Positions 479 through 59,877 of a stretch of 64,000 nt of DNA are shown in pieces. Below the pieces are notes generated by a model, which had not been told where the DNA came from, made no database searches, and saw nothing but the letters and a program-made list of their open reading frames with translations. The first letter of the stretch is position 1. The number at the start of each line of letters is the position of its first letter. This stretch comes from Gemmatimonadota bacterium (GTDB lineage Bacteria > Gemmatimonadota > Gemmatimonadetes > Palauibacterales > Palauibacteraceae): the NCBI GenBank assembly GCA_022820995.1, contig JAJEEM010000059.1, forward strand, positions 71,677 to 135,676, written 5' to 3'. The translations under genes and the position numbers were made by a program.

Positions 479-2872
479 CAGGACGTGCAGGACCGACTCG
501 CGCGCGGCGTACCCGTGGCTCTCGGCCGGCAGAAACACGAGCCGAGCCGTCGCGCCCAGCCCCTTCAGCGCCGCGTAGAAGCGCCGCGACTGGATGGGGA
601 AGGTGCCCGAGTTGTTGTCGTCCTCGCCGTGGATGATGAGGATCGGCTCGTTCACCTTGTCCGCGTGCATGAAGGGCGACATGTACAGGTAGAGGTCCGG
701 GTCCTCCCAGAAGAGCCGCTGCTCTCGCTGGAAGCCGAACGGCGTCAGCGTCCGGTTATAGGCGCCGCTCCGCGCCACGCCGGCCCGGAAGATGTCCGAG
801 TGGGCGAGCAGGTTGCCGGTCATGAAGGCGCCGTAGGAGTGTCCGCCGACGCCGACCCGATCCGGATCCACGACCCCGCGCCGCACGCCCTCGTCGACCG
901 CCGCCCGGGCGTTCGCCACCAACTGCTCGCGGAAGGAGTCGTTGGGCTCCGCGTCGCCCTCGCCGATGACCGGCATCGACGCATTGTCGAGCACCGCATA
1001 ACCCCGGGTCACGTACGGGACGGCGCCGCCGTAGGGGATCCGCGTGAACTGGTACGGCGAGTCGCGTCGCTGGCCGGCCGCCGCCGCGCTCTTGAACTCG
1101 GTCGGATACGCCCACACGAAGGTCGGGAGCGGACCATCGCGCTCCTGGTCGTAGTCCGCCGGCAGGTAGAGCGTCGCGGAGAGCGGGATGCCGTCCCCGC
1201 GCTCGTACTGGATCGCCTCCTTGCGGATGCCGGCAAACTGCGGATACGGGTGCGGGAACTCGGTCACCGCGCTGGTCGTCCCCCGCTCGAGGTCGCGCAG
1301 GAAGTAGTTCGGGGGCTCGTCCACGGACTCCCGGCGCGTCATCAGCCGCCCGTCTTCGAGGAGCGTGACCACGCCCTCGTAGTACGGCGCCTCGGAGCGG
1401 AACAACTCCTCTTCCTCTCCCGTCTCGAGGTTCCGCTTCCTGAGGAAGGGGCGGTTGCCTTCGGGCGACGCGCCCTGCCCCGCCAGGTAGATCGAGGATC
1501 CCCCGTCGGCGGTCATGAGGACGCCCTGGCCGCGCTCATTCGTCCTGAACATCGGGAAGCCGGGGTCGTTGTACCGGTCCTCCGTCTGCAGATCGAAGAT
1601 CAGCTCCATCTCGCCCGGGGCGTCCGGATCGATTCGGTAGGTGCGCTGCTGGCGGGTGGAGAACCAGTTCTCGTTCACGAAGGCGAACCCCTCCTCCGCC
1701 CACATCACGCCGCCGTAGCGGAGCGGGAGCGAGGCGATCGCCGCGGGTTCGCCGGAGAAGGGCGCCGCGTGCATGAACACCCGGTCGCGGATGTCCGCCT
1801 CGGCGAGGGCATCGCCGCCGTCCTGCGCCTCCGTCCAATACAGCGTCGCGTCCGCGTCGGCGCGCCACGAGATCGACCGCACGCCCGTCGGGACCGACCC
1901 GAACGACGTGGGGACGCCATCCTGGAGCGGGAGTTCGGCCACCCGGTGAACCACGTTCCCCTGCGTGTCCCACACCTCGATCGTGCTCGGGAAGCGGGAC
2001 GCCGGCACCTGGTACGAGTACGGCCGGTGAGTCGTCTGCACGAGCAGATGCTCGCCATCCGGCGAAGGCGAGGCGCCCGAGAAGATCGACGGATCTCCGA
2101 CCATGGCCACGGATCCGTCGAGGTCGACGCGGGCCAGCTGCGACGTCGAGTAGTACTCGTAGAGCGCCTCATCGTGCTGGTCCTGCAGCAGGTCCTGGTA
2201 GGTGCGGGCGGGGGCGGCTTCCCCCGAGGTCTCCTCGATCATGGGCGCCGTCGGAACGATCGGCTCGGCGGGCGCGGGGCCGCGGCCGGGCGGCACCGCC
2301 CTGGCGTAGAGGAAGTCTCCTTCCGGCGACCAGTTGAAGGGAGCCCCGAAGCCCACGTTCACGAGATCGAGGTCCGACAGCCGCCGCGCCGCCGCGGACG
2401 CGACGTCGAGGACCCAGAGCTGTACGGCCGAGTCGGTGTCGTGCGTGAACGCCACCGCGCTCCCGTTCGGCGACCAGCGCGTGTTGCGAATGCGCGGATT
2501 CTCCGGCAGGCCGGTCACGGCGCGCTCTTCCCCGTCGAAGGTGCGAAGCGCGAGGCCGTTCGAGGGCCGCGCGCGGCTGGGACCGTTCGTGCGCGGGTTG
2601 ATGCGCAGTCCGGCGATCCGCAGTTCGGGCGCGGCGACCTCGGCGATCGACGGCAGGCTCGGCCGCATCGTAAGCAGCATCACCGACTCGTCGGGACTCA
2701 GGCTGATCCCCGGGGTCGCCGGGGCGTCGACGAGCGCGGCGAGTTCGGCGGCCGGCGTCTGATAGCCGTCCGCACCCTCCTGCGCGGCGACATCCGCCGT
2801 GCCCGCGGCGAGAAGGAACGCGATGGAGAGGGAGAATCGAAGGATTCCGGGACTGCTGTGATCGTGTCGCAT
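401..2872 (-). CDS. S9 family serine peptidase (prolyl oligopeptidase/dipeptidyl aminopeptidase type) with N-terminal TolB-like beta-propeller; secreted
   Basis: Track ORF 401..3397 trimmed to ATG at 2872 (MRHDHSSPGILRFSLSIAFLLAAGTADVAAQEG = signal peptide). C-terminal GGHSYGAFMTGN (GxSxG nucleophile), DKVNEPILIIHGEDDNNSGT (Asp), ESHGY (His). N-terminal half has WSPDGS/TolB-like repeats. Confidence 0.85.
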   Translation of the reverse strand: MRHDHSSPGILRFSLSIAFLLAAGTADVAAQEGADGYQTPAAELAALVDAPATPGISLSPDESVMLLTMRPSLPSIAEVAAPELRIAGLRINPRTNGPSRARPSNGLALRTFDGEERAVTGLPENPRIRNTRWSPNGSAVAFTHDTDSAVQLWVLDVASAAARRLSDLDLVNVGFGAPFNWSPEGDFLYARAVPPGRGPAPAEPIVPTAPMIEETSGEAAPARTYQDLLQDQHDEALYEYYSTSQLARVDLDGSVAMVGDPSIFSGASPSPDGEHLLVQTTHRPYSYQVPASRFPSTIEVWDTQGNVVHRVAELPLQDGVPTSFGSVPTGVRSISWRADADATLYWTEAQDGGDALAEADIRDRVFMHAAPFSGEPAAIASLPLRYGGVMWAEEGFAFVNENWFSTRQQRTYRIDPDAPGEMELIFDLQTEDRYNDPGFPMFRTNERGQGVLMTADGGSSIYLAGQGASPEGNRPFLRKRNLETGEEEELFRSEAPYYEGVVTLLEDGRLMTRRESVDEPPNYFLRDLERGTTSAVTEFPHPYPQFAGIRKEAIQYERGDGIPLSATLYLPADYDQERDGPLPTFVWAYPTEFKSAAAAGQRRDSPYQFTRIPYGGAVPYVTRGYAVLDNASMPVIGEGDAEPNDSFREQLVANARAAVDEGVRRGVVDPDRVGVGGHSYGAFMTGNLLAHSDIFRAGVARSGAYNRTLTPFGFQREQRLFWEDPDLYLYMSPFMHADKVNEPILIIHGEDDNNSGTFPIQSRRFYAALKGLGATARLVFLPAESHGYAARESVLHVLWETDRWLELHVKPAKPVTTTDDAGS

Positions 2873-3064
2873 GGTACAGGCTCCAGCTGATGACCGACGT
2901 CGCGTGGTTCGTGATCGTGGCAACGGTGGCATAGTCCGAACCACCCGTAGCGCACGCAAGACGCGCCGCTGTCGCGCGCGCGACCCCGGTGCGATAGCGT
3001 TTCCGGGCCCGCGGGCGGCAGCGGCGTTCGCAGGCGCACACAAAAGGGAAAGGACGACAGGGAG

Positions 3065-3769
3065 ATGCGGATGATGGACGCACGTTACCTCCGGCTGTTT
3101 GCGGCGGGCGCCCTGGTGGCGGCGGGGTCGGCCGGCTGCGCACCCGGGGGAGATACCGAAGATGCCGACGCCTCCGCCGCGGCGGCCGAGGAGGCGGCTC
3201 AGGTGACGTCCCAAGGGGCGGCCCAGGTGGCGCTCGGGCCCGTGGATGGGCACGACCTGCCTCCGGCGGACCTCGAGCGGGTGCTCGCCGGCAGCCCCGC
3301 GCCCGACTTCACCGCCCTTTCGAGCACGGGCGAGCCGATCACCCTCTCGGACTACCGCGGAGAGAAGGACGTCATCCTCTTCTTCTACCGCGGCCACTGG
3401 TGACCGTACTGCGCAAAGCAGCTCGGAGAGCTGCGAGACTTCATGACGCCCGAACAGCGCGAACGGACCCAGCTCCTGGCGATCGCCCCGGACAGCCCCG
3501 AAGACATCGGACTAATGGTCGACCGCGTCCTCGAGGACTACGACTACGCCCTCGACTTCCCGCTGCTGTCGGATGACGGATCCGCGATCACCTACCGCTA
3601 CGGACTCCTGAACGAGGAGGACGGGCGCGGGCGCCAGATCCCGCACCCCACGACCTACGTCATCGACATGGACGGGACGGTGCGCTGGAGCTTCACCGAG
3701 GTGGACTACCGCGTCCGCCCCGAGCACGCCGACATCCTGGCCGCGCTCGAAGCCCTGGAGCAGCCGTAG
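3065..3769 (+). CDS. lipoprotein thioredoxin-fold redoxin (AhpC/TSA, PRX-like2 type) with in-frame TGA at 3401..3403 replacing first Cys of CxxC: candidate selenoprotein (U-P-Y-C); alternatively pseudogene/sequencing error
   Basis: Track ORFs 3065..3403 and 3443..3769 are in the same frame (both coordinate mod 3 = 2), separated only by TGA. Continuous translation ...APDFTALSSTGEPITLSDYRGEKDVILFFYRGHW[TGA]PYCAKQLGELRDF...FPLLSD...TYVIDMDGTVRW reads as a complete redoxin fold. N-term MRMMDARYLRLFAAGALVAAGSAGC = lipobox. Confidence 0.6.
3404..3434 (+). promoter_or_regulatory. candidate bacterial SECIS-like stem-loop immediately 3' of in-frame UGA
   Basis: gcagctc-gga-gagctgc perfect 7-bp stem at 3418..3434, 15 nt after UGA, G-containing apical loop; small cugc-gcaaa-gcag hairpin precedes it. 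Confidence 0.35.
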
Positions 3770-3811: not shown

Positions 3812-4751
3812 ACCGCGAGGCGGCGTCCTCCAGCCGGCAGCGGCCCATGCGGCAGGTGAGGCCGGTGAGTTCCTGACTCAGCTCCCGGAGGCGGGCGCGC
3901 GCCTCCGGGTCGTACGCCTGGGCGTTGGCCTCGGCGGGCCTGAGCCCGCTGAAGTACTGCCCGCTCTCGAAGTCATCGGAGTCGACGACCTGCATCGTCG
4001 CGTCGGCGCCCTCGGCGATGGTGGCGCGCGGGGTCGCGCCCAGCCGCCGCACCATGCCGGTCGGCATGTACGTCGCCGGATGGAGTGAGCCCACCACGAT
4101 GCCCGTCCCGGCCAGGTCCTCCGCGAGGTCGTGCGTGAACATGATCTGGGCGAGCTTGCTCTGTGCGTAGGCGCGGCGCCCGCTGAAATCGTTCTCGATC
4201 ATCACGTCGTCGAAGTCGATCGGCGCCTGTGCGCCGGACGACACGTTCACGATGCGCGACGGCGTGCTCTCGAGCAGCCGCGGCATCAGCAGGTGCGTCA
4301 GGAGGAAGGTGGAGAGGTAGTTCACCTGGAAGCGGTACTCGTGCCCGTCCTCTGTGACCCACCGCTCGTCCGGCGCCGACCCGAACCCCGCGTTGTTGAT
4401 CAGGATGTCCATCCGGTCGTAGTCGGCCAGCAGCGTCTCGGCGAAGGTCCGGACCTCCGCGAGCGACGCGAAGTCCGCGCGGTAGAAGCGGGCGCTCCCC
4501 GGCCCCGCCGCGTTGATGGCGTCCACCACCTCCGCTCCGCGCTCCTCGCTGCGCCCGTGGACGATGACGTGATCGCCCCGCGCGCCCAGCCGCAGGGCGA
4601 GTTCCCGGCCGAGGCCGGAAGTGGATCCGGTGACCAGGACCACCTTCTGTCCGGCGGCCGGCGCAGGGGTCGCCTGGGCCATGACTTCCGCGACGGAAGC
4701 GGACCAGGCGGACACGAGGACGGCAGCGGCCATCGCGATTTTTGTTGTCAT
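3810..4751 (-). CDS. short-chain dehydrogenase/reductase (SDR) with signal peptide
   Basis: Track ORF 3810..5219 trimmed to ATG 4751 (MTTKIAMAAAVLVSAWSASVA...), GGAGGA SD 8 nt upstream. VVLVTGSTSGLGRELA (TGxxxGxG), NNAG, YAQSKLA (YxxxK). Confidence 0.85.
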   Translation of the reverse strand: MTTKIAMAAAVLVSAWSASVAEVMAQATPAPAAGQKVVLVTGSTSGLGRELALRLGARGDHVIVHGRSEERGAEVVDAINAAGPGSARFYRADFASLAEVRTFAETLLADYDRMDILINNAGFGSAPDERWVTEDGHEYRFQVNYLSTFLLTHLLMPRLLESTPSRIVNVSSGAQAPIDFDDVMIENDFSGRRAYAQSKLAQIMFTHDLAEDLAGTGIVVGSLHPATYMPTGMVRRLGATPRATIAEGADATMQVVDSDDFESGQYFSGLRPAEANAQAYDPEARARLRELSQELTGLTCRMGRCRLEDAASR

Positions 4752-6718
4752 GGTACGAGTTCCTCCTCGACGAGGCGGGCGATCCACAGCCCGGAGTGGA
4801 GGTCGGAGGTGTAGATCCGGCCCTTGAACAGCTGGGCGCCCCACGTCATCGACCAGTTCGGCACCGCGGCGTTCGGCGATGACGTCTTGATGGCTCCGAT
4901 CTCGCGGCCCTGGCGATAAAGGTCGCCGCGCAGTTCCCCCGAAATATCCAGCACCCGCAGCCCCGCCTGATAGTAGCCGACGTAGAGCCGGTCGCGGTCG
5001 TCGCTCCACAGGTTGTGGGCTCCGGCCTCGGGCACGGTGTAGTGGGCGACCTTCACCGGGTCGTCCATGTTCGTCATGTCCAGGACCTCGACGAAGCCCC
5101 GCGCCTCGATGGGACCGAACGCGTTCGGATCCCAGTCGGACGGGTAGATCTCGGCCGCCACGAACAGGTACTTGCCGTGACGCCAGGCGACGTGCGTGTT
5201 CCCCTGCCCGGACACCCACCGCGAGACGAGCTTCGGGTCGCGGGCCGTGCCCCCGTGCGTGCCCGCCCCCGCGTCTAGGATATAAATGCCCTCGTTCCAG
5301 AACGATGCGTAGGCGTACCCGTCCTGGACGATGACGTCGTGCAGGCTGCGGACCGGTTCGTCGTGCACCCAGCGGTTGATCTCGCGCGGGTTCGCCGGAT
5401 CGGAGATGTCGATGATGACGATCTCGCTCGTGCCGTTATGGCAGGCGTAGACGAGATCCTCGTCCCCCAGGATCCAGACGTTGTGCACGCCCCCCGTCAC
5501 CGTGTCCGTGTACTCGGAGAGGATCTCCGGATGGGCGGGATTCGAGAGGTCGAGGAGGACGATCCCGTTCCTCCGGCTCGAGGCCCCCTCGCGGGTGACG
5601 ATCCCGAGGCGGTTGTCGGGGTGGATCTTCACGTCGTTGATGCGGCGGGCGTCGAGCTGGATGGAGTCGGTGAGGACCGGCTGCGCGGGGTCCGTCACGT
5701 CCCACACCTTCATCCAGTCGTGGTAGAAGGTCCCGAGGTAGGCGTAGTCGCGTCCGTCCACCCCCTCGAACACCCACGTGTCGCCGGCCCGGTGCGTGGA
5801 CGTGATCCCGCTGCCCACGAGTTCGAGCCGGGCCGTGTGGCGGCGGGGGCCGACGCGCACGGAGACCGTCCGGGCGATGGCCGGGCCCGCGATCGCGGTC
5901 ACGTGATAGGTGCCCGGCTCCTCCGCCACGAAGAGTCCGCGTCCGTCGACGGGTTCGACGCTCGCCCCGCTCGGCGTGACGCTCCACAGCGGCGCGAGGG
6001 CGATCTCCTCCCCGCTTCCGTCGCGGCCGAGCAGCCGAAACGCCGCGACATCTCCCGTCGAGAGCGAGGTCACATCACCGGAAGCCACCAGTTCGTAATC
6101 CTCGGCCGGGTTCGGCCGCACCGTGACCTCGACCTCCGTCGCGGCGGCGCCGGCGGAGACGGTCAGGACGGTCCGCCCGGGCACGTGGCCGAGGACGCGC
6201 CCCGCGTTGTCCACCGTCGCGATGGCGGGATCGGCCGAGGCGAACTCGAACTCGACGTCCTCCACGGCGCCGCCCATCGCCGTCCAGGCGCCGACATCGA
6301 GGGCGGCCGTCGCGCCCGCGTAGACGGGGCCGGCGACGCGGGCCTCGATCCGGTCGGCTTCGAGGCGGGGGACGACGATCCGGACCCAGCTCGGCTGGCC
6401 GCGGAACATCGCCGCCACGCGGGACTCGCCCGGCCGCACCGCGGTCACCAGCCCCTCGGCCGTCACCGTCACCCCATCGTCGGCCGCGAACCAGCGCACT
6501 TCCGAGGCGGCGCCCTCTTCCGCGGTCCCCTGGATCTCCGCGCTGAGCTGGAAGGACACGCCGACCTCGAGTTCGAGTTCAGCGGGCGAAGCGACCGCGT
6601 ACACCCGCTCCTGCGCCGAAAGAGGAGCCGCCAGGCCGACGGCGATCACGGTCGCCGCTGCCATGGCGGCCGCTCCGGCGACGGGAAGGGACAGGAACTG
6701 CGGGCGTGTCACTATCAT
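4748..6718 (-). CDS. secreted LVIVD-repeat beta-propeller protein with N-terminal Ig-like (Big_2-type) domains
   Basis: Trimmed to ATG 6718 (MIVTRPQFLSLPVAGAAAMAAATVIAVGLAAPLSAQE). Repeats IVLLDLSNPAHP, IVIIDISDPANP, IYILDAGAG, VEVLDMTNMDDP, LRVLDISGE = LVIVD repeat pattern. 4-bp ATGA overlap with upstream gene. Confidence 0.7.
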   Translation of the reverse strand: MIVTRPQFLSLPVAGAAAMAAATVIAVGLAAPLSAQERVYAVASPAELELEVGVSFQLSAEIQGTAEEGAASEVRWFAADDGVTVTAEGLVTAVRPGESRVAAMFRGQPSWVRIVVPRLEADRIEARVAGPVYAGATAALDVGAWTAMGGAVEDVEFEFASADPAIATVDNAGRVLGHVPGRTVLTVSAGAAATEVEVTVRPNPAEDYELVASGDVTSLSTGDVAAFRLLGRDGSGEEIALAPLWSVTPSGASVEPVDGRGLFVAEEPGTYHVTAIAGPAIARTVSVRVGPRRHTARLELVGSGITSTHRAGDTWVFEGVDGRDYAYLGTFYHDWMKVWDVTDPAQPVLTDSIQLDARRINDVKIHPDNRLGIVTREGASSRRNGIVLLDLSNPAHPEILSEYTDTVTGGVHNVWILGDEDLVYACHNGTSEIVIIDISDPANPREINRWVHDEPVRSLHDVIVQDGYAYASFWNEGIYILDAGAGTHGGTARDPKLVSRWVSGQGNTHVAWRHGKYLFVAAEIYPSDWDPNAFGPIEARGFVEVLDMTNMDDPVKVAHYTVPEAGAHNLWSDDRDRLYVGYYQAGLRVLDISGELRGDLYRQGREIGAIKTSSPNAAVPNWSMTWGAQLFKGRIYTSDLHSGLWIARLVEEELVP

Positions 6719-52371: not shown

Positions 52372-52455
52372 AACTCTCCCCCATTGGCTCGGTTCAATCG
52401 CACCGAACCGGGGACACGATCAGCGGCGGGTTGGTTGTGCGGAGGTCGAGCGGCC
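52372..52455 (-). promoter_or_regulatory. conserved 5' leader element (hairpin cggttc-N9-gaaccg + GGGGGAGAG SD) shared with 55721..55802
   Basis: ctctccccc..cggttcaatcgcaccgaaccggggacacgatca...ttggttgtgcggaggtcgagcgg aligns with 55721-55802. Confidence 0.45.
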
Positions 52456-52645
52456 CTGCGAGGTCGGCACTCGGGACAGCGCCCCCCCTTGCTGGAAACC
52501 AAGAGCCCCGAGGACGGAAAACGCCCCCGGGGCCCTTACCCCAGCGTCTTGCTGCACCCGAAGGCCTTTTGCAGTAGAGGACGGCCTGAGGCGTACACTT
52601 GAAGGATCGTCAACTCTCATCCCAACCGCAACCTGCGGAGTTTCT

Positions 52646-53359
52646 ATGCTACCCATCGAAGGCCTTCGGAGTGCGCTTTCAGCGGAGCGACTGAGTGCCT
52701 ATGCCCTGCCTGAGGACACCGACGAGGTCGACTGCGTGGCCCGGTATCTGTGGAACCTGGCGCTCTGTAGCGCCCTCCACCCGGCGCTTCATACCCTTGA
52801 GATTACCGTCCGGAACCGCCTCTTCGACATCTCCAGAAGGATCGTCAATGAGACAAATCTCAGTTTTGACAAGGTTCCGTGTTGGCTCGATGCTCGACCT
52901 TCCCTGCTTGCCGACCCCGAGCGTGACGCCGTCGAGAAGGCGAAAGCAACGATTCTGAGGCGAAGGAGTTCGATGACCGAGGGCCGGCTTGTCTCGGTCC
53001 TGGGGTTTGGTTTCTGGGTGAGCTTGTGCAAGCGGTCATATGAACAAGGGCGCGCCGGCGGGCCGCGCCTCTGGCCCGAACTGGCGACGAGGGGATTCCC
53101 GCATTTACCAAGAGCCCAAGGCACACGCAGCCAGATCTTCCACGCCCTGGATCCGCTTCGCGACCTGCGTAACCGCGTGTCTCACCATGAGGCCGTTTGG
53201 GACCGGAAGCTTGACCAAAGCCATCAGGAAATCCTCAGAACGATAGCCTGGATCAACCCCGAATTGGCGGCGACCCTGGAGAAACACTCCCCGCTGCCGG
53301 CAGTACTCGACCGGGGCGTAGCCGGGTACCGCGCCCAGGCCGAGGCAATCATCGGGTGA
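52646..53359 (+). CDS. HEPN-type Abi-like (Abi_2/AbiD-AbiF family-like) protein; lower-GC insertion
   Basis: 237 aa; ...FHALDPLRDLRNRVSHHEAVWD (R-x4-H HEPN motif); GC visibly lower than flanks; opposite strand to flanking paralogs. Confidence 0.45.
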   Translation: MLPIEGLRSALSAERLSAYALPEDTDEVDCVARYLWNLALCSALHPALHTLEITVRNRLFDISRRIVNETNLSFDKVPCWLDARPSLLADPERDAVEKAKATILRRRSSMTEGRLVSVLGFGFWVSLCKRSYEQGRAGGPRLWPELATRGFPHLPRAQGTRSQIFHALDPLRDLRNRVSHHEAVWDRKLDQSHQEILRTIAWINPELAATLEKHSPLPAVLDRGVAGYRAQAEAIIG

Positions 53360-56854: not shown

Positions 56855-58708
56855 TCATCCGGGACTCTTCGGAACCGTATCGGTCGCCGGGGGACGCAGC
56901 AACGGCACGGTGTCGGTCGCCGGGGGGCGCAGCAGTTCGAGGAGGAAGTCGACGGCCTCTTCGGATTCGGTGCGGCCGAGCCAGTAGATGCCGCGCTCCC
57001 GCACTTCCTGATCCGGTTCGTTGCGGATCAGCTCCATCAGTACCCTCGGAGCGGCGGGGTCGGATCCGGCCCGCTGATAGATCGCGTAGATGGCCTGCCG
57101 CTTCAGGAAGGCCTCGGGCAGTTCCCCGTACAGGTCGGCGAGATACGCCACCGTCAACGTCGGGTGGGCCGCCCACGCGCTGAAGGCCGCGCCGCGCACG
57201 TTGCTGGCCACCTCCGGGTCGTACGCGACCAGTCGCGCCCATTCGGCGGTCTGCATGTCCTCCTTCTCCCTCACCTTGCGCGCCAGCGTGCGGAGCAGCG
57301 TCTCCTTGCGATCGTCCGAATCGAGCTGATCGTAGAGTCGAACGAGGACTCCGCCTTCCACGTGATCGAGGTCGCCCAGCGCAACGATCGCCTGGTAACG
57401 AATACGGTCCGACTTCGAGCGGTTGGCGGCCGCGCCGACGAGGGCGTTCTGGATCGCGGTCGGCGCCGACGCGTCCACCGCATACCGGCTGCTGCGGAGC
57501 CCGCCGATCGCGTCGCTCTGCTCGGCGTCGTCATCCGAATCCCGGAGGGTTATCGCGAGCACCCGGAACGCGGCCCGGGAGTTGAAACGCCACATTTCCT
57601 GAAGCGCGCTTCTGCGAACCGACTGCTCCGGATGGTTCGCGATGACGCCCAGGAGGACGCGCTCGGCTTCCTCGGTTTCCTCCCTCGCGATGAGCTCAAC
57701 CGCCTCATCGTGAAGCCGCATCGAGCACTCATCCTCGCGGGTCAGGACATCGCGCAGCACCTGCACCCGGTTGACGTCATCGAAGCGCATCACGGCCTCG
57801 AGCGCCGCCAGCTGCACCGACACGTCTTCGCACGCTTCCTGTTCCTGCGACGCGGCCCGCCGGGCCTCCTGGTACTCCGCCCACTGCCAATCGAGGTTCG
57901 AAGCCTCGCGCGCGTAGTCCGCAACCTGCTGCTCATAAGCCTGCCGCTCGTAGTCGGCCAGGGGATCCGCCTGATCCGCCAACCGCCGGACGTAGTCGGC
58001 CACGGGATCCGCCTGATCCGCCAACCGCCGGACATAGTCGGCCAGGGTCTGTCCCTCCGGCTCGCCCTGTACTTCGGCCAGCAACTCTGCGGCCACGGAG
58101 TCCGGCAGATCCGTCAGGTCGGCCGTCGACACTGGAAGCGAGAGGGTGCGGCCCCCCACCTCCATGGGCATCACGCGAAAGCCCGGCATCGGGGCGGCGA
58201 CGTCGAGCGTCTCCTCGGCCTCGCGCAGCAGCTGCTCCGCATCGCCGGCGTCGCCGCTCGACGCGAGCTGGCTTTTGATCTCGAAGTCCAGGGCCCGCGC
58301 GTCGTGGTACAGCCGTCCGGCGTCCCTGCCCATGCGGGGCACGGCCGGTCGCGCTTCGTCAAACCCGACCATCAGTATTTCCAGCAGCAACCGCGCTTCG
58401 GCCAGGTCGCCGAGGCGATAGCGGGCAAACGCTTCCCAGTAGTAGGAGTCGGGCTCGAACCGGGGTGTAACGAGCGGGGACTCGGTTCGTACGGCCTGGA
58501 AGAGCGCCACGGCGCGCTCGAACTCCTCCGCGTTGATGGCGCGACGCGCCTCGAGGAAACGCGCCACCTCCTCCTGCTGGACCGTCTGCGCGGCAAGGCC
58601 GTCCGCCCCGAACGCCCGCAGCGCATCGGGCGCGGGCGCGGCGTCCACGATGGCGAGACCGGCGAGCAGCAGCCCGGTCCAGGTCAAGTGTCTCACGCGG
58701 TCACTCAT
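56855..58708 (-). CDS. secreted HEAT/PBS-lyase-type repeat protein with C-terminal 11-aa tandem duplication
   Basis: MSDRVRHLTWTGLLLAGLAIVDA; ...QSVRRSALQEM / RYQAIVALGDL / VRERGIYWLGR HEAT-like units; C-terminus LLRPPATDTVPLLRPPATDTVP. Confidence 0.55.
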   Translation of the reverse strand: MSDRVRHLTWTGLLLAGLAIVDAAPAPDALRAFGADGLAAQTVQQEEVARFLEARRAINAEEFERAVALFQAVRTESPLVTPRFEPDSYYWEAFARYRLGDLAEARLLLEILMVGFDEARPAVPRMGRDAGRLYHDARALDFEIKSQLASSGDAGDAEQLLREAEETLDVAAPMPGFRVMPMEVGGRTLSLPVSTADLTDLPDSVAAELLAEVQGEPEGQTLADYVRRLADQADPVADYVRRLADQADPLADYERQAYEQQVADYAREASNLDWQWAEYQEARRAASQEQEACEDVSVQLAALEAVMRFDDVNRVQVLRDVLTREDECSMRLHDEAVELIAREETEEAERVLLGVIANHPEQSVRRSALQEMWRFNSRAAFRVLAITLRDSDDDAEQSDAIGGLRSSRYAVDASAPTAIQNALVGAAANRSKSDRIRYQAIVALGDLDHVEGGVLVRLYDQLDSDDRKETLLRTLARKVREKEDMQTAEWARLVAYDPEVASNVRGAAFSAWAAHPTLTVAYLADLYGELPEAFLKRQAIYAIYQRAGSDPAAPRVLMELIRNEPDQEVRERGIYWLGRTESEEAVDFLLELLRPPATDTVPLLRPPATDTVPKSPG

Positions 58709-58779
58709 GGTATGCCTCCGTACTCTCTGGTCGACTCCAAGATCGCTCTCCATCGTCCTGTATTGCGCTCGCATCCGGA

Positions 58780-59877
58780 TCACGTGCCGCTCGCGGACCG
58801 AAGCCGCATCAGCGTCCCCTGCCGTTCCATGCTCTCACGGGCCAGTTCGCGCTCGAAGTCCGGGGCGTCCGGGCCCAGGCGCGCGATCTGCACGAGGATG
58901 AGTTCGAGATCCTGAAGCAGCGTCCGCGCCTGCTGTCCGTCGGCGGCGGGCGTGGCGAGCCGTGAACGGGTCTCCACCAGCAGTTCGCGCGCCCACCGGG
59001 CAAGATCCTGCTGGGACTCGTCGGTGCCGATATCCGTGCGGAAGGCGACGAGCAGGGTGCGGGCGCGGTCGAGGTGTCCCGCCATGTCGTATTCGTCGGC
59101 TGCGGAGCGCAGCGCGGCGCCGGCGGGCCGTTGCGCCGTCGAACTGACCGCGGCGCCGACCGGCGGGTCCGCCTCGGGCCGGGCCGCCGCCGGGGCCGGA
59201 TCGGCTGCAGGCGGGGACCCGGCCGCCGCGAACTGCCGGTTCGTCTCCAGGGGCTCCTCGACGACGGAGAGCGCCAGCGCCTCCTCGGCGGCCGTCGGCG
59301 CGAGAGGTCCGGAGTCGGTCGCCGCGATCAACGGCGCGGCCGACGCAGCCGCTCCGACCGACGCCGGCGCCGCCGACGCCACCGTCTCGGGCTCGGCGGG
59401 CACCGGCAGCTGCGGGCCGCCGTCGAGCGCCACGGCGAGCGCGACCGAAGCGGCGGCGGCTCCCGTCAGCCATGCCGCTGTCCGGCCGGGTCGCCGCCCG
59501 AGCGTCCGGGCCACGACGAGCCGGAGCGGGCCGCGAGTCGCCTTGCGGTCGCCAGCGGTCTCCGGCTGCCTCGCGACCCATTCGGCCTCGATCCGTTCCC
59601 ACATCGCCTCGCGCGGCGCGGGCGGCGGGTCGTGGTAACCCAGCACATCGAACGGACGATCGACGTCGTCTCCGATGCAGTCCACGGCGTCCGCCATGCC
59701 CGCCAGGTCCGTCGACTCCGGCTCGTCGGACACCGGCGGCGCGCCGAGCCGCGTCTCGATCCCGGCCCACATCGCCTCGACCGGAGGCTCCGGCGGGTCG
59801 TGGTAGTCCGCCGCCTCCCGGCGGAGGAACCGGGCAAAGCGGCTCGCGTCGTCCATGCGATCCTTCAGCATGCCCAT
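58780..59877 (-). CDS. putative anti-sigma factor (single TM) with duplicated N-terminal YHDPPxxPxEAMWxxIE motif
   Basis: Overlaps ECF sigma gene by 13 nt; ADYHDPPEPPVEAMWAGIETRL ... LGYHDPPPAPREAMWERIEAEW; TM AAWLTGAAAASVALAVAL; no zinc-finger HxxxCxxC. Confidence 0.5.
   Translation of the reverse strand: MGMLKDRMDDASRFARFLRREAADYHDPPEPPVEAMWAGIETRLGAPPVSDEPESTDLAGMADAVDCIGDDVDRPFDVLGYHDPPPAPREAMWERIEAEWVARQPETAGDRKATRGPLRLVVARTLGRRPGRTAAWLTGAAAASVALAVALDGGPQLPVPAEPETVASAAPASVGAAASAAPLIAATDSGPLAPTAAEEALALSVVEEPLETNRQFAAAGSPPAADPAPAAARPEADPPVGAAVSSTAQRPAGAALRSAADEYDMAGHLDRARTLLVAFRTDIGTDESQQDLARWARELLVETRSRLATPAADGQQARTLLQDLELILVQIARLGPDAPDFERELARESMERQGTLMRLRSASGT

What the first reader, a model, noticed from the sequence alone, without database searches (positions are those of the whole stretch)
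52646..53359. Lower-GC HEPN/Abi_2-like gene inserted, on the opposite strand, in the middle of the propeller paralog cluster
The 237-aa protein carries ...LDPLRDLRNRVSHHEAVWD (Rx4H). Its composition is visibly less GC-rich than the neighbours. It splits an otherwise uniform minus-strand cluster and is preceded by a 274-nt leader. This profile fits a horizontally acquired single-gene abortive-infection/defence module (AbiD/AbiF-like HEPN RNase).
Basis: partly seen in the sequence, partly recalled or inferred. Interest (0 to 1): 0.5.

Follow-up and report, generated by a model that had tools for sequence, protein, structure and literature searches.

The report
Mobile Abi-like RNase with partner sRNA
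The low-GC gene is a real, mobile AbiF/PD-T4-5-like HEPN RNase gene, and its supposed "leader" is a conserved, structured small-RNA gene on the opposite strand that travels with it and is probably its RNA antitoxin.

Summary
A 237-aa ORF (52646-53359, +) carries RNRVSHH (Rx4H). It lies in the lowest-GC stretch of the window (0.61 vs 0.69, z -3.6), on the opposite strand to a propeller-paralog cluster.

It is mobile. Orthologs at 75-90% identity sit in five unrelated contexts, with homology limited to 52494-53359. At this same locus, close relatives lack it, or keep only the RNA beside an internally deleted gene.

It is not a single-gene module. The proximal 150 nt of the "leader" is a roughly 100-nt sRNA gene on the minus strand. 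It has three helices with strong covariation, a sigma70-type promoter at a fixed offset in 74 of 92 loci, and a hairpin plus U-tract terminator. It was found beside 88-100 of 160 homologous loci across many phyla and in viral contigs. It matches no Rfam family, including abiF (RF03085).

The best reading is an AbiF-like type III toxin-antitoxin/abortive-infection module with a new, divergently encoded RNA partner. Function is inferred, not tested.

The parts
52494..53359 (.). Whole co-mobile unit (sRNA gene + abi-like ORF), 866 bp
   Evidence: blastn homology to copies in unrelated contexts (L002, L005, L006, L007) starts at 52494/52495 and ends at or within 10 nt of the stop codon at 53359 (alignment A1). 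Lowest-GC 866-bp stretch of the window.
52646..53359 (+). abi-like HEPN ORF, 237 aa (PD-T4-5-like branch of Abi_2/AbiD/F)
53168..53188 (+). RNRVSHH: HEPN Rx4H motif (R175, H180, H181 invariant)
   Evidence: Invariant columns in the 36-sequence family alignment A2. This segment is deleted in the decayed copy L177/L178.
52799..52816 (+). E52-x3-R56-N57, second invariant motif in the long N-terminal helix
   Evidence: Invariant columns in A2. Lies in helix 27-66 of the AF2 model.
52492..52596 (-). Inferred sRNA transcript (~100-105 nt). The 5' end is inferred from the -10 box and the 3' end from the U-tract.
   Evidence: CM hit at 52496-52607 (R1 105 bits, R2 91.5 bits). Covariation. Promoter and terminator geometry. 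Transcript ends are inferred, not measured.
52501..52537 (-). P1: GC-rich terminal hairpin (core arms 52503-52513 / 52525-52535), the terminator stem on the minus strand
   Evidence: All 11 pairs show changes on both sides across 42 sequences. On the minus strand it is a perfect stem including G-U pairs. Listed as terminator-like on the minus strand.
52493..52500 (-). U-rich tail after P1 (minus strand ...CUCUUGGUUUCC); edge of the conserved block
   Evidence: The plus-strand A fraction at this edge is 0.45 against a background of 0.19 over 90 loci. Clear U-tracts are seen in AT-richer members.
52539..52591 (-). P2 long-range helix (52539-52548 with 52580-52591), which encloses P3
   Evidence: RNAalifold on a MAFFT alignment and CM alignment counts, e.g. 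one pair is GC:24/AU:17 and another UA:27/CG:11.
52552..52574 (-). P3 hairpin (52552-52558 with 52563-52574). The loop at 52559-52562 reads CGAA on the plus strand and UUCG on the minus strand.
   Evidence: The tetraloop reading comes from the sequence.
52603..52608 (-). -10 box of the sRNA promoter (GATCCT in this copy)
   Evidence: Same offset in 74 of 92 loci. Profile over 76 distant loci: T61 A74 T44 A36 T34 T71. This copy is weak (3/6).
52626..52631 (-). -35 box of the sRNA promoter (TTGCGG in this copy), 17-nt spacer
   Evidence: It lies outside the CM, so it is independent of the RNA search. Profile T64 T52 G55 of 76.
52637..52640 (+). GGAG, a likely ribosome-binding site for the abi ORF, 5 nt before the ATG
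   Evidence: Read from the sequence. Conserved only within the close clade. Inferred.
52372..52493 (.). Remainder of the 274-nt gap: host intergenic DNA, not part of the element
   Evidence: Not conserved in copies at other sites. Partly shared with relatives that lack the element; L179 aligns up to 52447.

Best explanation
The element is an 866-bp, two-component toxin-antitoxin/abortive-infection module of the AbiD/F (Abi_2) HEPN superfamily.

The plus-strand gene encodes a 237-aa AbiF-fold HEPN RNase, which is the toxin/effector. Its active site is predicted to be R175/H180, probably formed at a dimer interface as in PbAbiF.

Immediately upstream, and transcribed away from it, is a ~100-nt structured sRNA. 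It has its own sigma70-type promoter, whose -35 box lies 15 nt from the abi ATG. Its body has two conserved helices (P2, P3). It ends in a terminal hairpin (P1) followed by a U-tract that acts as its terminator.

I propose that the sRNA is made in excess, binds the RNase and blocks its active site, as a type III antitoxin does and as AbiFr/RCd22 do for AbiF. Loss or titration of the RNA during phage infection or after loss of the element would then free the RNase to arrest the cell. The tightly abutting divergent promoters may also keep abi transcription low.

Shown here: the gene, fold, motifs, mobility, the RNA structure, the promoter/terminator anatomy and the gene-RNA linkage. Inferred: RNase activity, toxicity, RNA-protein binding, antitoxin role and phage defence.
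For: Protein:
- PD-T4-5 HMM E 5.9e-16, and 36 of 36 family members match it.
- Abi_2 covers profile positions 28-184 of 184.
- E52/R56/N57 and R175/H180/H181 are invariant.
- dN/dS is 0.19-0.29.

RNA:
- 92.5% of cells are paired and 26 of 28 pairs change on both sides.
- The covariation score is 0.396, against 0.128 when shuffled (0 of 500 shuffles reach it) and at most 0.10 when slid.
- The same P2/P3 helices come from RNAalifold on an alignment not fitted to the model.

Strand and gene anatomy:
- A minus-strand TTGaca-17-TAtaaT profile sits at a fixed offset in 74 of 92 loci. Its -35 box lies outside the model.
- A hairpin plus U-tract lies at the block edge.
- Plus-strand A-C mismatches (50) outnumber G-U pairs (25), so the minus strand pairs better.

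Linkage:
- The RNA lies directly upstream in the same relative orientation in 88 of 160 loci at E<1e-3 and 100 of 160 at E<0.1, from many phyla. It is also in 9 of 39 viral loci.
- Two tandem genes in L063 each have their own RNA.
- Homology between copies at different sites covers exactly RNA plus ORF.

Precedent:
- AbiF is a type III TA whose upstream ncRNA blocks the HEPN site (PMC12737573, PMC12373285, PMC13064643).
- PD-T4-5 gives Abi-type defence against T4 (PMC9519451).

Decay pattern: L177/L178 keep an intact RNA (105.5 bits) but have lost 474 bp of the toxin gene, including RNRVSHH.
Against: - Nothing was measured: no transcript data, toxicity, RNA binding or phage assay.
- The RNA is on the opposite strand to the gene, unlike every characterised AbiF/AbiD ncRNA. 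It has no detectable similarity to the abiF motif RF03085.
- No promoter for abi itself could be located, so the transcripts may overlap. That would favour an antisense mechanism.
- The RNA was not detected at about 40% of homologous loci, nor upstream of the longer (330-350 aa) plasmid proteins of Enterobacteria, Acinetobacter and Agrobacterium. The experimentally tested PD-T4-5 is itself plasmid-borne, but I did not locate it.
- The window's own sRNA promoter is a weak match (6 of 12).
- The window copy sits among propeller paralogs, not in a defence island.
- The CM-fitted alignment leans towards the modelled structure.
Confidence: 0.5

Rival explanations
1. Type I-like or transcriptional control. 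The divergent sRNA does not bind the protein. It represses abi either by base-pairing with an overlapping abi 5' UTR (cis-antisense, as in hok/sok or symE/symR) or by promoter occlusion between the two abutting promoters.
For: The sRNA promoter lies 15 nt from the ATG here and 3-10 nt from it in some relatives. Any abi transcript with a 5' UTR must therefore cross it and may start inside the sRNA gene. No separate abi promoter was found. Divergent or antisense sRNA next to a toxin gene is the classical type I geometry (own knowledge).
Against: A pure antisense RNA needs no sequence conservation between lineages. Here, single-stranded stretches (minus strand GUAAUUCC and GUCCU) and a three-helix architecture are kept down to about 30% protein identity across phyla. 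That points to recognition by a conserved protein. The closest solved homologue is an RNA-bound HEPN dimer. A search by eye for trans complementarity to the abi start region was not conserved (L002 against the window). The toxin is a 237-aa enzyme, not a small membrane peptide.
Confidence: 0.22
2. Sense-strand reading. The conserved block is the 5' UTR or a co-directional ncRNA of the abi transcript, as in AbiFr/RCd22, and the minus-strand features are coincidental.
For: This is the arrangement in all characterised AbiF systems (PMC12373285). The helices can form on either strand, and the plus-strand MFE reproduces P1-P3. One member (L104) has a UACG loop on the plus strand.
Against: Conservation stops abruptly at the 5' edge, with no plus-strand promoter there or anywhere at a consistent offset. 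A canonical -35/-10 profile with an unconserved 17-nt spacer points the other way in 74 of 92 loci. The U-tract follows the terminal hairpin only on the minus strand. Wobble statistics and fold z-score (-2.6 against -1.1) favour the minus strand.
Confidence: 0.1
3. A selfish addiction or genome-stabilising cassette, or a housekeeping RNase-sRNA pair, with no role in phage defence.
For: The window copy is not in a defence island. The contexts are metabolic or paralog-rich regions. The family is abundant on plasmids: 998 records, 434 of them conjugative, where TA modules often serve in maintenance. Many copies are decayed.
Against: The only tested relatives (PD-T4-5, AbiD/D1/F) protect against phage (PMC9519451, PMC13064643). 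Relatives lie beside R-M, TA and AAA/helicase genes on plasmids and in viral contigs. Patchy presence or absence is typical of defence genes. This rival concerns the biological role and is compatible with the same molecular mechanism.
Confidence: 0.15

Closest known systems
PbAbiF-AbiFr (PDB 8VZ6) and C. difficile AbiFCd-RCd22: AbiF type III toxin-antitoxin systems
   Different: About 16% sequence identity, with no sequence-level PDB match. The RNA is on the opposite strand with its own promoter and terminator. It has a three-helix body instead of one or two abiF-motif hairpins, and gives no RF03085 match at E<=10. There is no terminator between the RNA and the gene.
PD-T4-5 (Vassallo et al. 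2022; PADLOC PDLC04038)
   Same: Best HMM match (E 5.9e-16; 36 of 36 family members). It was described as a plasmid-borne distant relative of AbiF/D that gives Abi-type defence (PMC9519451).
   Different: The PD-T4-5 profile is 309 positions long and only 13-220 are matched. The longer enterobacterial plasmid proteins show no R2 sRNA hit upstream. I did not locate the original PD-T4-5 locus, so whether it has an RNA partner is unknown.
Lactococcal AbiD/AbiD1/AbiF/AbiD-like group
   Same: Abi_2 domain. The upstream non-coding sequence is conserved and required for function or cloning (PMC13064643).
   Different: Low-GC Firmicute plasmids. The AbiD HMM matches only weakly (E 0.015). Their RNAs are co-directional.
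Type I TA loci with divergent or antisense sRNAs (symE/symR, tisB/istR-1, zorO/orzO; own knowledge)
   Same: The sRNA gene sits next to the toxin start and is transcribed the other way. It has a strong sRNA promoter and an intrinsic terminator.
   Different: Those toxins are mostly small peptides. Their sRNAs act by base-pairing and are not conserved in structure across phyla.
ToxIN/AbiQ type III TA
   Same: A protein endoRNase toxin is neutralised by a cognate RNA, and the system works as an Abi defence.
   Different: Unrelated toxin fold. The antitoxin is a tandem repeat array processed by the toxin and is co-directional. No repeats are present here.

Membership tests
HEPN superfamily | Rx4-6H motif in an all-helical domain | tested here: met
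Pfam Abi_2 (PF07751) | Score at or above Pfam's gathering cut-off (25.6 bits) | tested here: not met
   20.5 bits, E 6.3e-4, covering profile 28-184 of 184. 33 of 36 family members match at E<=0.01, best 3e-6, and some homologs carry a precomputed PF07751. It is therefore a divergent branch, not a formal Pfam member.
PD-T4-5 (PADLOC PDLC04038) | Significant match to the family HMM | tested here: met
   E 5.9e-16, 56.6 bits, residues 10-200 against profile 13-220 of 309. 36 of 36 members match, best 7.6e-22. No curated cut-off is available, and the C-terminal third of the profile is unmatched.
AbiF fold (PbAbiF, 8VZ6) | Structural superposition over most of the protein | tested here: met
AbiF type III TA system | Cognate ncRNA carrying the abiF motif (Rfam RF03085), upstream on the same strand | tested here: not met
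   No RF03085 hit at E<=10 in the window or in 35 related loci. The promoter and terminator place the RNA on the opposite strand.
AbiF type III TA system | A conserved structured ncRNA genetically linked to the HEPN gene | tested here: met
   Covariation. Found directly upstream in 88-100 of 160 loci. Co-mobile block.
AbiF type III TA system | The protein is toxic and the RNA neutralises it by direct binding | not testable with these tools
   Needs expression, co-purification or EMSA. The only indirect hint is the orphan RNA beside a deleted toxin in L177/L178.
Type I toxin-antitoxin | The antisense RNA overlaps or base-pairs with the toxin mRNA | tested here: inconclusive
   The abi transcription start is unknown and no plus-strand promoter was found. 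The geometry allows overlap.
Type I toxin-antitoxin | Small hydrophobic peptide toxin | tested here: not met
   A 237-aa soluble helical enzyme-like protein.
Independent bacterial sRNA gene | Own sigma70-type promoter and intrinsic terminator bracketing a structured body | tested here: met
   -35/-10 profile at a fixed offset. GC hairpin plus U-tract. Expression itself was not measured.
Any Rfam 15 family | Covariance-model match | tested here: not met
   Only chance-level hits.
Anti-phage defence / abortive infection system | Protects a population from phage through growth arrest or death of infected cells | not testable with these tools
   Homology to PD-T4-5 and AbiD/F only (PMC9519451, PMC13064643).
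Horizontally mobile element | Presence/absence polymorphism and differing insertion contexts among close relatives | tested here: met
   Five contexts for 75-90% identical copies. At this locus the element is absent in L175/L176 and L179/L180, decayed in L177/L178 and intact in L001. No integrase, terminal repeats or target duplication were identified.

The most novel reading that the evidence does not exclude
The block upstream of the gene defines a previously uncatalogued class of structured sRNA that spans many phyla. It would be the divergently encoded RNA antitoxin of a large branch (about 5,400 clusters at 50% identity) of PD-T4-5-like HEPN RNases. HEPN-ncRNA partnerships of the AbiF kind would then exist in at least two unrelated RNA architectures and gene orientations. 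That broadens the pool of RNA-bound HEPN ancestors relevant to the origin of Cas13.
Probability: 0.4. Interest if true: 0.7.

Novelty: new variant of a known kind. Interest (0 to 1): 0.6.

Why it matters
AbiF-type HEPN toxins with RNA antitoxins were recognised only in 2025 and are proposed ancestors of Cas13. This locus suggests that a large, mostly unannotated sister branch uses a different RNA. Its members are called 'hypothetical' or 'Abi family protein' and occur on about 1,000 plasmids and in many phyla. The RNA has a different fold, lies on the opposite strand and has its own promoter and terminator.

If the RNA is the antitoxin, three things follow:
- These genes should be annotated and cloned as two-part modules. 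The ORF alone may be toxic, and screens for single genes would miss or misjudge them.
- The covariance model built here gives a handle for finding such modules and orphan antitoxins.
- Comparing two independent RNA solutions for silencing the same HEPN fold would bear on how a protein-RNA toxin pair could become an RNA-guided nuclease.

For this genome, it marks the propeller-paralog cluster as a variable region that accepts foreign DNA.

Tried and rejected
- Sense-strand ncRNA or 5' UTR like AbiFr. This was my first hypothesis after finding the conserved block. I dropped it after the wobble counts, the two-strand folds, the minus-strand promoter profile and the U-tract.
- Rfam. No abiF motif or any other family in the window or in 35 loci.
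- Sequence search of the PDB with the protein and with the family profile. Nothing was found; only fold comparison found PbAbiF.
- NCBIfam gave no hit. PHROGs gave only weak partial hits.
- A promoter for abi. The tool scan found none on either strand in the window copy. My plus-strand scan found no consistent position; the best was 15 of 92 loci at the site of the sRNA -10 box.
- G-U against A-C as a strand test. It gave only a 2:1 lean and is partly confounded by one-column misregister of P1 in divergent sequences.
- Tetraloop identity as a strand test. The result is mixed: UUCG on the minus strand in most, but UACG on the plus strand in L104 and CUUG(+)/GCAA(-) in L027.
- Conserved leader peptide after the GAGG in P2. 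None was seen, because the following sequence is variable.
- Trans pairing of the sRNA 5' end with the abi ribosome-binding site. It is plausible in the window but not conserved in L002 (by eye).
- Terminal repeats, target duplications or a clean empty site. None was found. Relatives without the element have extra propeller paralogs in its place.
- RNA more conserved than the ORF, as reported for lactococcal AbiD/F. Not seen here: the identities are similar.
- The sRNA upstream of long plasmid-borne relatives was not detected.

Full report
**Observation.** The ORF at 52646-53359 (+) is real. It translates to 237 aa and contains ...LDPLRDLRNRVSHHEAVWD, with R175-x4-H180. All long ORFs around it are on the minus strand: beta-propeller paralogs of about 375-430 aa and a TMEM260-like gene.

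The GC dip is real and strong. The ORF is 0.616 and the conserved unit 0.614, against 0.694 +/- 0.022 for all 866-bp windows (z = -3.6). It is the lowest such stretch in the 64 kb. GC3 is 0.71 against 0.84-0.95 in neighbours. The non-coding gap to the upstream gene is 274 nt, as stated.

**The protein.**
- Pfam Abi_2 matches across nearly the whole profile (positions 28-184 of 184), but below the curated cut-off: 20.5 against 25.6 bits, E 6e-4.
- The PADLOC model for PD-T4-5 matches at E 5.9e-16.
- NCBIfam has nothing. PHROGs has only weak partial hits.
- Across 36 family members, 33 hit Abi_2 and all 36 hit PD-T4-5.
- Sequence searches of the PDB find nothing.
- Invariant residues are E52, R56, N57 and R175, H180, H181.
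- dN/dS against orthologs is 0.19-0.29, so the gene is under purifying selection.
- A profile search of 1.84 billion representatives finds 5,379 clusters at E<=1e-3.
- tblastn finds relatives on 998 plasmids, usually annotated 'Abi family protein', and in a few phages.

PD-T4-5 was reported as a plasmid-borne distant relative of AbiF/D that gives abortive-infection defence against T4 (PMC9519451).

**Mobility.** The organism is a Candidatus Palauibacter-like member of the Gemmatimonadota (names). About 45 clusters at 75-91% identity exist in that clade, but their contexts differ completely:
- a propeller cluster (window and L001, which are syntenic);
- an LRR-protein cluster with integrases nearby (L002-L004);
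- arginase on one side and HTH-M78/AAA/S8 peptidase on the other (L005);
- gamma-glutamyltranspeptidase on one side and a group II intron and IS21 on the other (L006);
- aminotransferase on one side and histidine phosphatase on the other (L007-L010).

blastn shows that homology between these copies begins sharply at window 52494/52495 and ends at or within 10 nt of the stop codon (alignment).

I then looked at orthologs of the left flanking propeller gene and found three states at this same locus:
- L175/L176 (flanks 95% and 92% identical) and L179/L180 lack the element and carry extra propeller paralogs instead.
- L177/L178 keep the upstream block intact, but the ORF has lost window positions 52750-53223. 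That includes the RNRVSHH motif and leaves a 79-aa remnant.
- L001 is intact.

The low GC is shared by all clade members: gene 0.60-0.64 against locus 0.65-0.69. It is therefore a standing property of the element rather than a sign of very recent entry.

**The upstream block is a structured RNA.**
- Iterated nhmmer found the roughly 140-nt block directly upstream of homologs down to about 45% protein identity.
- A MAFFT alignment of 22 copies showed compensatory changes. RNAalifold recovered a long-range helix (P2) enclosing a hairpin (P3), after a first hairpin (P1).
- I built a covariance model (R1), searched all fetched loci, and aligned 42 hits (A5).
- On A5, 92.5% of cells are paired and 26 of 28 pairs show changes on both sides. 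The covariation score is 0.396, against 0.128 +/- 0.009 in shuffles (0 of 500 reach it) and 0.03-0.10 when the partners are slid. That alignment is fitted to the model, so it leans towards the structure, but the MAFFT-based result agrees.
- A second model (R2) finds the RNA upstream of the gene in the same relative orientation in 88 of 160 genome and metagenome loci at E<1e-3, and in 100 of 160 at E<0.1.
- These loci come from Gemmatimonadota, Chloroflexota, Actinomycetota, Myxococcota, Pseudomonadota, Verrucomicrobiota and others. The RNA is also upstream in 9 of 39 viral contigs that encode a relative.
- Parafrankia (L063) has two tandem genes, each with its own RNA.
- No Rfam family matches, including the abiF motif RF03085.

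**Which strand?** My first idea was a co-directional ncRNA, like AbiFr or RCd22 (PMC12373285, PMC12737573). The evidence points the other way.
1. On the plus-strand reading, A-C mismatches (50) outnumber G-U pairs (25). The minus strand therefore pairs better. In the window copy, every A-C becomes G-U on the minus strand.
2. The window sequence folds with z = -2.6 on the minus strand and -1.1 on the plus strand. On the minus strand P1 is a perfect GC-rich hairpin followed by CUCUUGGUUU, and the scan tool lists it as terminator-like.
3. Across 90 loci, the plus-strand A fraction at the block's edge is 0.45 against a background of 0.19. AT-richer members show plain U-tracts after the terminal hairpin. 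Where P1 is absent, the U-tract follows P2.
4. This is the decisive point. The best sigma70-like site on the minus strand within a 100-nt search region falls at the same offset in 74 of 92 loci. Mean best scores are 8.30 on the minus strand, 5.90 on the plus strand and 6.38 when shuffled.
   - Over the 76 loci outside the close clade, the fixed-offset profile is T64 T52 G55 at the -35 box and T61 A74 T44 A36 T34 T71 at the -10 box. The 17-nt spacer is unconserved.
   - The -35 box lies outside the covariance model, so it is independent of how the loci were found.
5. No plus-strand promoter appears at a consistent place, and conservation ends abruptly at the far edge.

The block is therefore an sRNA gene on the minus strand. 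In the window its parts are:
- -35 box TTGCGG at 52626-52631;
- -10 box GATCCT at 52603-52608;
- inferred start near 52596;
- P2 at 52539-52548 paired with 52580-52591;
- P3 at 52552-52574, with a UUCG loop on the minus strand;
- P1 terminator at about 52501-52537;
- tail ending near 52493.

The window's promoter is a weak match (6 of 12). Distant members have near-consensus ones, for example TTGACA-17-TAAACT and TTGACC-17-TATCAT.

**Mechanism.** Shown here:
- an AbiF-fold HEPN protein with intact catalytic motifs, under purifying selection;
- a structured sRNA gene with its own promoter and terminator, abutting and diverging from it;
- strict co-mobility and wide co-occurrence of the two;
- a decayed copy that kept the RNA but lost the toxin's catalytic part.

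Established for relatives: AbiF is a type III toxin-antitoxin in which the upstream ncRNA binds the HEPN dimer and blocks the active site (PMC12737573, PMC12373285, PMC13064643). The upstream regions of lactococcal AbiD/D1/F genes are conserved and needed (PMC13064643).

Inferred: the sRNA here is the antitoxin of the RNase. It is made in excess from a dedicated promoter, and release of the RNase causes growth arrest during infection or after loss of the element. I put this at about 0.5.

The main rival (about 0.2) is antisense or promoter-occlusion control. The sRNA promoter sits 15 nt from the ATG and I could not find the abi promoter, so the transcripts may overlap. Against this, single-stranded sequence motifs and a three-helix fold are conserved across phyla, which suggests protein recognition.

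The sense-strand reading (about 0.1) is disfavoured for the reasons above. Whether the module defends against phage or mainly acts as an addiction cassette is a separate, untested question.

**Comparison and novelty.** The module works like AbiF/AbiFr and is related in fold. It fails two membership tests for the canonical family: the Pfam cut-off, and the abiF-motif RNA on the same strand. It is best placed in the PD-T4-5-like branch.

The longer plasmid relatives in Enterobacteria, Acinetobacter and Agrobacterium show no hit to this RNA. Short plasmid versions (Picosynechococcus pAQ5, Acetobacter, Aeromonas) give weak hits at the right place.

I found no description of a divergently encoded sRNA partner for Abi_2 proteins in the searchable literature. 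The primary AbiF paper (Zilberzwige-Tal et al. 2025) is not in the library and may cover more clades than the reviews report.

My rating is a new variant of a known kind. The gene itself is a new member of a known family, and the RNA partner appears to be new.

**Limits.**
- There are no expression data, and the transcript ends are inferred from sequence motifs.
- The covariation statistics include related sequences and a model-fitted alignment.
- About 40% of homologous loci have no detectable RNA with the current model.
- How an 866-bp unit without a recombinase moves is unexplained.

Noticed in passing
window ~48.8-55.7 kb (minus strand); L175, L177, L179: The 6-bladed beta-propeller (DUF5128/NHL-like) paralog cluster changes copy number between close relatives. 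Where the window has the abi unit, L175 has two extra paralogs (407 and 432 aa), L177 has one extra 432-aa gene, and L179 has one extra 407-aa gene. The cluster behaves as a recombination-prone variable region.
   Followed up: partly
L177:4180-4570 and L178:181-571: An orphan state at the same locus: the sRNA is intact (R2 105.5 bits) beside a 79-aa remnant of the abi ORF with a 474-bp internal deletion that removes the Rx4H motif.
   Followed up: yes
L063 (Parafrankia sp. EUN1f) 2848-3609 and 4529-5286: Two tandem abi-like genes, each preceded by its own copy of the sRNA.
   Followed up: partly
L038:2665-2781 and 2882-2967; L011:4200-4292; L074:167-243: Extra sRNA copies: two tandem hits upstream of one gene (L038), a partial second copy downstream of the gene (L011), and an apparently orphan hit with no abi gene detected after it (L074).
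   Followed up: no
L017, L018, L025, L028, L035; shortened proteins: Many relatives are truncated, matching only residues 1-140, 1-165, 86-236 and so on. This suggests frequent decay of the toxin gene.
   Followed up: no
window vs L001: abi, propeller genes and TMEM260-like gene: Synonymous divergence differs along the syntenic region: dS 0.10 for the TMEM260-like gene, 0.27-0.55 for propeller genes and 0.32 for abi. This hints at recombination or faster turnover in the variable cluster.
   Followed up: no
L181, L182, L184, L185 (Enterobacterial and Agrobacterium plasmids): The longer (330-350 aa) 'Abi family protein' relatives have a 140-300-nt upstream gap but no hit to the sRNA model or to the abiF motif. 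They may have a different, undescribed RNA partner. L183 (Acinetobacter) gives only an odd AT-rich hit downstream of the gene.
   Followed up: partly
L184:1831-1983: A near-threshold ryfA sRNA match (69.8 bits against a gathering score of 80) just downstream of the Yersinia ruckeri plasmid abi gene.
   Followed up: no
window 59000-59750: Local GC peak of 0.77-0.79, well above the window mean of 0.69.
   Followed up: no
window 56855-58783 (minus strand): The 642-aa HEAT-like ORF contains short internal tandem duplications in its translation (ADYVRRLADQADP twice; LLRPPATDTVP twice).
   Followed up: no
window 52626-52638 (plus strand): A small hairpin, CCGCAACCTGCGG, overlaps both the sRNA -35 box and the first two bases of the GGAG before the abi ATG. 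It could affect abi translation if it is present in the mRNA. It is conserved only in the close clade.
   Followed up: no
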